DNA of 14,432 bases from a virus (IMGVR_UViG_651053020_000002); one strand, 5' to 3'. Positions 12,903-13,827 are shown, counted from the stretch's first letter. Numbers and translations: made by a program. Notes: generated by a model from the letters alone, not told the origin.

Positions 12903-12925
12903 TCTCTCCATGTGTTAAATATTGA

Positions 12926-12958
12926 AACGGGCGTATAACACGCCCGTTGTTTTATTTA
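12926..12958 (+). terminator. Rho-independent terminator of icd
   Basis: Stem AACGGGCGT / ACGCCCGTT (12926-12934 / 12940-12948) with short loop, followed by GTTTTATTT; begins 24 nt after the icd stop. Confidence 0.75.
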
Positions 12959-13004
12959 TGTGGATATTATTAATAGCATATCGAGCATATTTATATGAAG
13001 CCCA

Positions 13005-13328
13005 TTACTTGAGCCCATATGGGCATATTTTTATAATGCAACTATTATGTAAACATTTATTTGTTATTTTGCTTTCTCCTGGAGGACACTCTTGACTGCT
13101 TTTGAGTAAACTCCATAAATCCTTGTTGAATGGTGCGATGTGATAAATAGTAATAGGATATTCTTTATCCTTAAGGATAATACCAGACTTAACCGGTGTA
13201 AATATACTGCCAGGAGGGAGAAATATAGTAGATTGATACCAGATGATCATTTTCATATTACCCCATATGGCTGAAAAAGATATACCACATGTAGGTTGAA
13301 TTACCGTGTCAATTACTATCCACTTCAT
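13005..13328 (-). CDS. iraM: Anti-adaptor protein IraM (inhibits RssB-dependent RpoS degradation)
   Basis: 107-aa minus-strand [39 protein letters not shown]... in AT-rich DNA immediately downstream of icdC, matching the K-12 arrangement as I recall it. Confidence 0.8.
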
Positions 13329-13770
13329 TTGTTATGTCTTATCCCACGGTATTTAATATGGTTCATTAGGATGTTTATTTCTTGATTTTGCATATGAGTA
13401 TATTACCCCCCCCTCAAAAAAATAAATTAATTAAAATGATGGCTTATATAAAATAAAATTTAAAGCAAGGAATCTCAATGGATGTTAAACAAAATGAGAT
13501 TTTGTGAAAGCAATAAATTATTGACTTCGTTTTAGATTTGTTTAGCTATAATGTTATACATTCAAATGACTGAACATCCTGTAATTAAAACATAGCCTTT
13601 ATGCTACTTTGTGCCAATTTGCTAAACATTATGGTTGCCTTTTTATATAACGATAATAATGAATATAAGCATGACATGAGAATAAGGTTTCAATTTTTGA
13701 GTTATATAGGAATGATTTAACCTGTTCCTGGCTAAAATACATATAACCGGATGATGACTAAACCAAAATA

Positions 13771-13827
13771 CATGTGCGTTAAGTATTGAAACGGACGTGT
13801 GGCACGGCCGTTGTTTTTATAAATATG
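13771..13827 (+). repeat. Diverged second copy (~85% identity over ~50 bp) of the icd-proximal terminator region (compare 12909-12960)
   Basis: CATGTGcgTTAAgTATTGAAACGGaCGTgtggCACGgCCGTTGTTTTtA... aligns with CATGTGTTAAATATTGAAACGGGCGTATAACACGCCCGTTGTTTTAT...; the hairpin is largely retained with one stem mismatch. Confidence 0.6.

What the first reader, a model, noticed from the sequence alone, without database searches (positions are those of the whole stretch)
12909..13827. The icd terminator region is duplicated about 860 bp downstream, bracketing iraM as a possible ancient insertion
The sequence from just after the icd stop (12909-12960: CATGTG, TTAAATATTGAAACGG, the terminator hairpin and T-run) recurs at 13771-13827 at roughly 85% identity with the hairpin largely preserved. 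The ~810 bp between the copies is markedly AT-rich and contains only iraM plus its upstream region. Diverged direct repeats of a gene-terminal sequence flanking AT-rich DNA are the usual signature of an old site-specific insertion at the 3' end of icd, separate from and older than e14. That would make iraM horizontally acquired cargo and the icd 3' region a repeatedly used integration hotspot. I do not recall this being described.
Basis: seen in the sequence. Interest (0 to 1): 0.6.

Follow-up and report, generated by a model that had tools for sequence, protein, structure and literature searches.

The report
Old prophage scar holding iraM
The stress-regulator gene iraM of E. coli K-12 sits in an 0.8-kb piece of foreign DNA bracketed by two copies of the icd gene's terminator; this is most likely the worn-down remnant of a phage-like element that once integrated at the end of icd, a site already known to be used by phages e14 and 21.

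Summary
Positions 12909-12953 and 13771-13817 match at 39 of 45 aligned bases plus a 2-nt gap, about 12-14 sd above shuffles.

The predicted empty site exists. In 1,037 of 5,426 complete E. coli genomes a single terminator is joined directly to the sequence right of copy 2. In 3,861 genomes the iraM segment is present.

Other iraM+ lineages carry a copy 2 much closer to copy 1. K-12's ~85% identity is therefore partly private decay of a relic.

A divergent allele (19 genomes) holds a 6.3-kb island at the same place. It has an e14-type attL, trkG, an iraM variant and a YmgB-like gene. There copy 2 is preceded by the last four codons and stop of icd. Copy 2 is therefore best read as what remains of a displaced icd 3' end plus terminator, that is, an old attR.

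IraM relatives occur only in Escherichia, mostly as morons of lambdoid prophages.

No integrase survives, so the mechanism is inferred. AT-richness is not confined between the repeats. This is a new, decayed member of a known kind; interest is modest.

The parts
12738..12902 (+). icdC: 165-bp 3' fragment of icd at the right end (attR) of e14, ending in the stop codon
   Evidence: Annotated as a partial isocitrate dehydrogenase in K-12. ORF 12738-12902. The 165-nt ends are a mosaic that differs by 7-19 nt between strains and phage-borne copies.
12903..12955 (+). Copy 1: spacer (…CATGTG TTAAATATTGA), terminator hairpin 12926-12948 (AACGGGCGT/ATAAC/ACGCCCGTT) and T-run. This is the working icd terminator. 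On the minus strand it is also the nearest hairpin downstream of iraM.
   Evidence: -23.3 kcal/mol, z -5.5. The same hairpin follows icd in Citrobacter, E. albertii and E. ruysiae and in phage 21 attP.
12956..13770 (.). Inserted segment, 815 bp, 30% G+C. It is absent from the empty-site genomes.
   Evidence: empty site, 865 bp shorter; G+C. A homologous but ~20-26% divergent version lies inside a 6.3-kb island in 19 genomes.
13005..13328 (-). iraM, anti-adaptor of RssB (107 aa): the cargo gene
   Evidence: Annotation. Homologs at 54-73% identity are found only in Escherichia, typically between Q and nanS-p/holin of lambdoid prophages, antisense to the late operon.
13585..13629 (-). ymgK, an annotated 14-codon ORF in the long iraM upstream region, inside the insert
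   Evidence: coordinates transferred from L019. Reported as co-induced with iraM in PMC11228462.
13771..13819 (+). Copy 2: decaying relic of a displaced icd 3' end plus terminator (spacer remnant CATGTGCG TTAAGTATTGA, hairpin AACGGACGTG/TGG/CACGGCCGTT, T-run of 5)
   Evidence: Other lineages keep GGGCGT/ATGGC/ACGCCC or carry one different stem mutation each. In the divergent allele it is preceded by ATCAAGAATATGTTAA, the last icd codons plus stop.
13820..14027 (-). Native right flank with ymgL (13865-13975). It is contiguous with the single terminator in empty-site genomes.
   Evidence: Its first ~50 nt resemble the e14-type P' arm.
14028..14432 (-). ycgX (DUF1398), convergent with icd. It marks the old right-hand neighbour of icd.
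   Evidence: Pfam PF07166. A 71%-identical ortholog lies convergent with icd in a Citrobacter sp. with no iraM between them.

Best explanation
The two copies are the attL-side and attR-side remains of an old integration at the 3' end of icd, of the same kind as e14 and phage 21.

Those elements carry their own icd 3' end plus terminator. They recombine inside icd and push the original 3' end plus terminator to the far side of the element. Here the element has been whittled down to 815 bp: iraM with its own long regulatory region.

Copy 1 is the terminator that now serves icd. Copy 2 is the displaced one. It has lost its icd coding part by deletion and is no longer under selection, so its stem is picking up different mutations in different lineages.

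iraM belongs to a small Escherichia-only family that otherwise travels as a 'moron' in lambdoid prophages. e14 entered icd later in the K-12 lineage.

Shown: the repeat, the empty site, the decay of copy 2, the icd-coding relic in a sister allele, and the phage contexts of the homologs.

Inferred: that an integrase made the insertion, which of the two copies came with the element, and the order of the deletions.
For: Repeat far above chance.

Empty site in 1,037/5,426 genomes, with exactly one terminator joined to the K-12 sequence right of copy 2. The iraM segment is present in 3,861 genomes.

The T-run is 5 T in the empty sites and in copy 2, where it is contiguous with the native flank. It is 4 T in copy 1 of all five iraM+ lineages examined.

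Copy 2 in D3, C21, S. flexneri and STLIN_13 differs from copy 1 by only a 2-nt insertion, one A>G and loop AA>GG, plus one lineage-specific change each. K-12 adds three private changes. Predicted stabilities range from -16.8 to -11.4 kcal/mol. This is a relic under relaxed constraint.

In the MFDS1022581-type allele (19 genomes) the order is: icd with an e14-type attL flank, a hypothetical gene, an IS fragment, trkG, iraM' (72% aa identity), a YmgB-like gene, an IS3 fragment, then ATCAAGAATATGTTAA plus spacer plus hairpin, then ymgL and ycgX. The 27 nt left of the shared block match the icd end at 20/27. One other 27-mer among the 45,565 scanned (in L043 and the window, both strands) reaches this; the binomial P is 3e-6.

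Phage 21 attP and e14 attL both contain an icd 3' end plus a terminator of this type.

The icd/ycgX convergent adjacency without iraM occurs in a Citrobacter sp..

IraM homologs sit in lambdoid prophages between Q and the lysis genes.

iraM occurs next to an intact icd without e14.
Against: No integrase, excisionase or recognisable arm sites survive in the 815-bp segment, and no integrase is found in the 6.3-kb variant.

In K-12 the repeat contains no icd coding sequence. The coding relic is seen only in the divergent allele, whose e14-type attL could stem from a separate, later event.

No genome with an intact element carrying this iraM was found. The closest phage-borne homolog in the phage collection is 65% identical, with DNA similarity confined to the coding sequence.

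Which copy is element-borne cannot be read from sequence, because phage-borne and native terminators are nearly identical.

The empty sites could be secondary precise deletions between the repeats. The right flank of the empty-site strains is much closer to K-12's than to the divergent iraM+ allele.
Confidence: 0.65

Rival explanations
1. Direct insertion into the terminator. A circular DNA (a phage fragment or small integrative element) carried a ~50-75-bp segment resembling the icd terminator region. It recombined with the chromosomal terminator by a single crossover, by integrase or by RecA, in the right half of the hairpin. On this reading the left part of copy 2 is element-borne and copy 1 is largely native.
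For: All shared copy-2-specific differences (2-nt insertion, A>G, loop GG) lie left of the stretch CACGCCCGTTG. Copy 1 has 4 T, while copy 2 and the empty sites have 5 T, as a crossover in the right stem would give. Both junctions coincide with the ends of the terminator unit. Phages that carry this terminator exist.
Against: A 1-nt change in T-run length is a common mutation. In the divergent allele the repeat reaches into the icd coding end. That fits elements that replace the gene's 3' end with the crossover on the left. No element with such an attP was found.
Confidence: 0.2
2. The iraM cassette is still mobilisable. It would be an integrase-less, att-flanked cassette, like the cis-mobilisable elements derived from integrative elements, which a resident icd-targeting integrase can excise and re-insert. 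That would explain the clean presence/absence polymorphism.
For: The empty junction is precise, and two divergent iraM+ alleles share the same right junction. Flank relatedness suggests that at least some empty sites could be losses.
Against: The annotated phage 21 attP places the icd-like fragment 165 bp deep in the gene. The known e14 and phage 21 crossovers lie at that boundary (my recollection of Hill 1989 and Wang 1997), not in the repeat. Copy 2 accumulates stem mutations in every lineage. The search with the divergent island found one place per genome, all chromosomal. I did not check systematically whether the K-12-type cassette occurs at other loci.
Confidence: 0.07
3. The similarity is chance, or convergence of two unrelated terminators, or a dispersed repeat family such as REP/BIME.
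For: Both are hairpin plus T-run motifs, which are common.
Against: The score is 12-14 sd above shuffles and includes the non-hairpin spacer TTAA[A/G]TATTGA. There are only 1-4 places per E. coli genome, all tied to icd or its phage-borne copies. A scan of 185,579 species genomes found the hairpin only next to icd in enterobacteria, apart from two partial matches in unrelated metagenome bins (L015, L018); three further bins labelled as non-enterobacterial (L010, L011) carry an E. coli-like icd end and look like contamination. The empty site is shorter by 865 bp, against a repeat spacing of 864.
Confidence: 0.02

Closest known systems
e14 attL/attR at icd (icd / icdC) in E. coli K-12
   Same: The target gene is the same. 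The element supplies a replacement icd 3' end plus terminator, and the original 3' end is left as a pseudogene plus terminator on the far side. The K-12 e14 attL flank and the divergent island's attL flank share the GTTAG..GCTAACGGTTATCAAAATTTTATCAAAA arm.
   Different: e14 keeps its integrase and excisionase and a full 165-bp icdC. Here no recombinase is left. The coding part of the displaced end is gone in K-12 or reduced to 15 nt in the divergent allele, and only 0.8 kb of cargo remains.
Phage 21 attP/int module (lambdoid phages integrating in icd)
   Same: It carries the last 53 codons of icd plus the same terminator hairpin. It is found as a prophage at icd in O157:H7, E. albertii and an Escherichia sp.. 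Its host homology ends at GTTGTTTTAT, the same nucleotide as the copy 1/insert junction.
   Different: Its P' arm (TTCCCCAAAA repeats) and int are absent from the iraM segment. No phage in the collection carries this iraM.
Lambdoid prophage morons of the IraM/IraL family (e.g. downstream of stx2B in Stx2 phages; iraL on the potB island of CFT073)
   Same: Same protein family at 54-73% identity: a single small gene, AT-rich, with its own promoter, antisense to the neighbouring operon (PMC4045071).
   Different: Those copies lie in the Q-to-lysis region of recognisable prophages. DNA similarity to K-12 iraM is limited to the coding sequence, and they are not flanked by the terminator repeat.
Integrase-less, att-flanked remnants of integrative elements (cis-mobilisable elements; 'grounded' prophage scars)
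   Same: Direct repeats of the attachment region flank a short cargo with no recombinase.
   Different: Mobility has not been shown here, and one repeat is visibly decaying.

Membership tests
Remnant of an icd-integrating element (e14 / phage 21 type) | Direct repeats derived from the 3' end region of icd flank the insert | tested here: met
   (K-12, terminator part). (the divergent allele includes the last 15 nt of icd plus the stop).
Remnant of an icd-integrating element (e14 / phage 21 type) | Genomes with an unoccupied site that has a single copy of the repeat | tested here: met
   1,037 genomes. Junction read base by base.
Remnant of an icd-integrating element (e14 / phage 21 type) | Tyrosine integrase (and excisionase) encoded inside the element | tested here: not met
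   The only ORFs of 50 aa or more overlapping the 815-bp insert are iraM and an unannotated 57-aa ORF (12922-13095, plus strand); no integrase-sized gene fits, and the annotation adds only the 14-codon ymgK. The 6.3-kb variant has a hypothetical gene, IS fragments, trkG, iraM' and a YmgB-like gene, with no integrase domain.
Remnant of an icd-integrating element (e14 / phage 21 type) | Displaced full 165-bp icd 3' fragment (icdC) at attR | tested here: not met
   No similarity to icd upstream of 13771 in K-12. Only 15 nt plus the stop survive in the divergent allele.
Remnant of an icd-integrating element (e14 / phage 21 type) | Recognisable phage arm next to attL | tested here: inconclusive
   An e14-type P' arm is present at attL of the divergent island (compared with K-12 e14). 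It is absent right of copy 1 in K-12.
Transposon / insertion sequence with target-site duplication | Short (2-14 bp) identical target duplication, terminal inverted repeats, transposase | tested here: not met
   The repeat is about 47 nt or longer. No terminal inverted repeats of the insert were reported. There is no transposase ORF.
Dispersed intergenic repeat (REP/BIME/ERIC-like) | Many copies per genome at unrelated loci | tested here: not met
   1-4 places per genome, all associated with icd. The species-wide scan finds it only next to icd.
Intrinsic (rho-independent) terminator | G+C-rich hairpin followed by a T-run, more stable than shuffled sequence | tested here: met
   Copy 1: 9-bp stem, 6 G-C pairs, -23.3 kcal/mol, z -5.5. 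For copy 2 in K-12 the feature is only weakly met: mismatch, z -0.3. Activity itself is not testable with these tools.
IraM / IraL anti-adaptor family | Sequence homology to characterised IraM | tested here: met
   The window gene lies in clusters named anti-adapter protein IraM at 94-96% identity. The RefSeq annotation agrees.

The most novel reading that the evidence does not exclude
The iraM cassette might not be a dead scar. It could be an integrase-less cassette bounded by functional recombination sites in the icd terminator hairpins, gained and lost precisely in trans through resident icd-targeting phage integrases or an unknown recombinase that uses terminator hairpins as core sites. 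E. coli lineages would then switch an RpoS-stabilising, PhoP-linked module on and off at the population level.
Probability: 0.06. Interest if true: 0.6.

Novelty: new member of a known kind. Interest (0 to 1): 0.35.

Why it matters
Origin of iraM. It places iraM, one of the three classic K-12 anti-adaptors that control RpoS stability. iraM is not part of e14, as has been written. It lies in an older, separate insertion at the same attachment hotspot, and it belongs to a gene family that phages carry as morons.

Strain distribution. It explains at base-pair resolution why iraM is missing from about a fifth of complete E. coli genomes.

Regulation. It shows that iraM's long regulatory region arrived with the gene. 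This matters for how a foreign gene was wired into the PhoPQ and H-NS circuits.

Annotation. It adds one more layer to the icd site as a stack of nested prophage scars, and it shows how a duplicated terminator can betray an otherwise invisible old integration.

It does not reveal a new mechanism.

Tried and rejected
1. I first read the O157:H7 and E. albertii loci, where an integrase gene ends 40-60 bp after the icd terminator, as prophages integrated in the terminator itself. I rejected this. The integrase is 98% phage 21 Int, and phage 21 carries the icd 3' end plus terminator in attP, so these are ordinary integrations inside icd.

2. I looked for the right end (attR) of that O157 prophage to compare with copy 2. 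It is lost through a deletion reaching the ompT/minE region.

3. I searched for a phage carrying this iraM. The best match is 65% aa identity in Stx2 phages, and DNA similarity is confined to the coding sequence.

4. I searched for further icd-like sequence upstream of copy 2 in K-12 with permissive scoring. None was found.

5. The extra 220 nt next to copy 2 in the divergent allele might have been a phage arm. It is a fragment of an IS3-family element, with no phage match.

6. The second variant of the divergent island (2020CK-00188) has lost copy 2 and ymgL, so it gives no information.

7. YcgX relatives in Escherichia sp. E10V10 and E. albertii are paralogs elsewhere, at the fli region and in a lambdoid prophage. 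They are not orthologous sites.

8. Rfam gave nothing above threshold in 12400-14432.

9. The supplement tables giving iraM presence for the ECOR collection (in Hryckowian et al., PMC4045071) are not held, so I could not map presence/absence on phylogroups.

10. The species-wide DNA pattern required CACG in the 3' stem. It therefore missed copy 2 variants such as CACACCC, so absence of copy 2 outside E. coli and Shigella is not established.

Full report
**Where we are.** The window is the right end of the e14 element of E. coli K-12 and the chromosome beyond it. The features are pin (10974-11564), mcrA (11671-12504), icdC (the 165-bp icd 3' fragment, 12738-12902), iraM (13005-13328, minus strand), the tiny ORFs ymgK and ymgL, and ycgX (14028-14432, minus strand). 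The 'icd stop' of the finding is therefore the stop of icdC.

- The repeat finder gives a 43-nt direct repeat, 12911-12953 vs 13775-13817, at 84%.
- A gapped local alignment gives 12909-12953 vs 13771-13817, 39/45 identical plus a 2-nt gap, score 53.
- Shuffled queries score 19.8 +/- 2.3 against the downstream region and 23.8 +/- 2.4 against the whole window on both strands.
- Copy 1 is a strong terminator-like hairpin (-23.3 kcal/mol, z -5.5). K-12's copy 2 has an internal mismatch and is no more stable than shuffles (-13.7 kcal/mol, z -0.3).
- The 815 bp between the copies is 30.2% G+C. The sequence to the right of copy 2 is just as AT-rich (28.8%, then 36.8% in ycgX), so composition is not bracketed by the repeats.

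**The empty site exists.** I searched 12738-14030 against 5,426 complete E. coli genomes.
- 3,861 genomes carry at least 80% of the query.
- A class of genomes matches both ends of the query within 428 bp instead of 1,293 bp.
- Read base by base, these have the icd or icdC stop, one copy-1-type hairpin, five T, and then ATAAATATGTTAACCGTTATAAAATAACG…. That is exactly the K-12 sequence to the right of copy 2.
- A 171-nt query across this junction is contiguous in 1,037 genomes, among them the type strain ATCC 11775 and Seattle 1946. There is a clean gap between 99% and 77% coverage.
- A published survey had already noted that iraM is present in K-12 and absent from CFT073. It placed iraM 'on the e14 prophage' (PMC4045071).
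- That placement is not correct. iraM lies outside e14's attR, and it occurs next to an intact icd in strains with no element there.

**Copy 2 is a decaying relic.** In four other iraM+ genomes (strains D3, C21 and STLIN_13, and S. flexneri) copy 1 keeps the same hairpin. Copy 2 in these lineages reads CATGTGCGTTAAGTATTGAAACGGGCGTATGGCAC[G/A]CCCGTTG…. Relative to copy 1 that is:
- a 2-nt insertion;
- one A>G;
- loop AA>GG;
- one further change that differs between lineages.

K-12 adds three private changes, two of them on both sides of one stem pair, and they do not restore pairing. Predicted stabilities of the copy 2 alleles scatter from -16.8 to -11.4 kcal/mol. The original repeat was therefore at least about 93% identical. 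The 85% seen in K-12 is partly recent erosion, and nothing suggests selection to keep copy 2 as a terminator.

**What the repeat is.** The hairpin of copy 1 follows icd in Citrobacter amalonaticus, C. braakii, E. albertii, E. ruysiae and others. In most of those loci it is followed by phage DNA.
- One class continues GATGAT.TAAAATCTTCCCCAAAAC and then an integrase that is 98% identical to phage 21 Int. Phage 21's annotated attP contains the last 53 codons of icd, this terminator and the arm sites.
- A second class continues GTTAGC.TGCTAACGGTTATCAAAATTTTATCAAAA, which is the flank of K-12's own e14 attL.

So elements that integrate in icd bring their own icd end and terminator. They leave the original end and terminator on their far side.

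**The decisive locus.** It came from divergent YcgX relatives. In 19 complete genomes, for example strain MFDS1022581, the interval between icd and ycgX is 6.3 kb. Its order is:
1. icd with an e14-type attL flank;
2. a hypothetical gene;
3. an IS fragment;
4. trkG;
5. an iraM variant (72% aa, 80% nt identity);
6. a YmgB/AriR-like gene;
7. an IS3-family fragment;
8. copy 2, ymgL and ycgX.

The upstream region of the variant iraM and the right flank are homologous to K-12's, so the right junction is the same one. There copy 2 is preceded by ATCAAGAATATGTTAA, the last four codons and stop of icd. The alignment to icd runs 67 columns rather than 47. The extra 27 nt match at 20/27. One other 27-mer among the 45,565 scanned reaches this, probably the window's own icdC end, and the binomial P is 3e-6.

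Copy 2 is thus what is left of a displaced icd 3' end plus terminator. K-12's shorter version is compatible with a further ~24-nt deletion between TACAT repeats. That last step is inferred from sequences read and is not proven.

**Polarity and age.**
- A Citrobacter sp. has a ycgX ortholog (71% aa) convergent with icd and no iraM between them, only an IS200 remnant. The icd/ycgX adjacency is therefore old and iraM is the addition.
- The K-12-type and MFDS-type islands are 20-26% divergent yet share the junction.
- Divergence between their right flanks falls from 33% next to the junction to about 2% by bluR. The island, together with a few hundred bases of flank, has evidently been moved between lineages by homologous recombination.
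- The right flank of the empty-site strains is much closer to K-12's than to the MFDS type. I therefore cannot exclude that some empty sites are precise secondary losses by recombination between the two copies. The product would be indistinguishable from the ancestral state.

**The cargo.**
- IraM relatives number only 34 clusters, and every cluster that carries a species name is Escherichia.
- Where context is available they sit in lambdoid prophages between the Q antiterminator (or stx2AB) and nanS-p/holin, antisense to the late operon.
- iraL of CFT073 is on another island (PMC4045071).
- DNA similarity between K-12 iraM and the Stx-phage copy is confined to the coding sequence.

**Mechanism, with its limits.** The best reading, at about 0.65, is as follows. 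An element of the e14/phage 21 kind integrated at the icd 3' end. iraM was among its cargo. Deletions removed everything else, including the recombinase and the coding part of the displaced icd end. e14 arrived later in K-12.

The left junction of the insert coincides with the end of the icd terminator's T-run. In the MFDS type, the homologous point coincides with the T-run of the trkG terminator. This is compatible with a deletion between two T-runs, but that is conjecture.

The main rival, at about 0.2, is a single crossover directly in the right half of the hairpin with an element-borne terminator-like segment. The positions of the copy-2-specific differences and the 4T/5T pattern fit it. 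The reach of the repeat into icd fits it less well.

No integrase remains, so 'site-specific' is an inference from the site and its neighbours.

**Comparison and novelty.** This is a further, strongly decayed member of the known class of elements at the icd attachment site. The hotspot itself, the replacement of icd 3' ends by phage copies, and the variable presence of iraM are all known. The terminator duplication that brackets iraM appears not to have been described in the papers I could search. The same goes for its reading as an old attR relic distinct from e14. It corrects a detail in the literature and gives iraM a clear origin, but it reveals no new mechanism.

Noticed in passing
window 13815-13870 (also L001 3213-3270); compare window 12590-12645: The 'native' sequence just right of the icd terminator resembles the e14-type P' arm over about 50 nt, including TTATCAAAA-like repeats (z 6-7 against shuffles). 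It resembles e14's P arm more weakly (z 3.2). Either e14's captured host DNA extends past the terminator, or the ymgL/ycgX side is itself an older e14-type scar.
   Followed up: partly
L003 3217 onward (APEC E956); L040 about 6150 (Citrobacter sp.): An IS200 left end (GTGCACAGAAAA.CCC…) sits immediately after the T-run of the icd terminator in an E. coli strain and in a Citrobacter sp. whose icd terminator is different. IS200 appears to pick the foot of this hairpin repeatedly.
   Followed up: no
L020/L021 (E. coli O157:H7 Z1504): A phage-21-type lambdoid prophage is integrated in icd. Its right end and the chromosomal genes from ycgX to about ymgF are missing, and the prophage region runs into ompT and minE. 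This lineage therefore has neither iraM nor the right flank.
   Followed up: partly
window 13528-13544: A PhoP-box-like direct repeat, CGTTTTAGATTTGTTTA, lies in the iraM upstream region, about 200 nt from the start codon. It is conserved in the 20-26% divergent MFDS-type allele (CCGTTTTAGTTCTGTTTAG), so the regulatory region travelled with the gene. phoPQ lies only about 5 kb upstream of icd.
   Followed up: no
L045 19465-19725; L042-L044: The divergent island carries an extra YmgB/AriR-family gene between iraM and ycgX. It is a paralog of the ycgZ-ymgA-ariR cluster a few kb further on.
   Followed up: no
icd 3' 165 nt in L001-L003, L005, L009, L013, L020, L023-L027, L040, L045, L046: The last 165 nt of icd differ by 7-19 nt among E. 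coli strains. Strain D3, which has no prophage, differs by 1 nt from the copy borne by the phage-21-type prophage of O157. The icd 3' end is thus a mosaic of phage-derived replacements.
   Followed up: partly
window 13005-13328 (IraM); P0001-P0026: The database's precomputed Pfam label for IraM relatives is PF11183 (PmrD). My own hmmscan of K-12 IraM and of the MFDS variant against Pfam gave no hit at E <= 0.001-0.01. A PmrD-like fold for IraM would link two PhoP-controlled connector proteins.
   Followed up: no
L006 1366-1400; L027 4757-5470: IS1 insertions truncate the iraM segment in individual strains. In ECMA0423 one sits right after the first 40 nt of the insert. In 2012EL-2448 one lies in the iraM upstream region, with loss of everything up to ymgF.
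   Followed up: no
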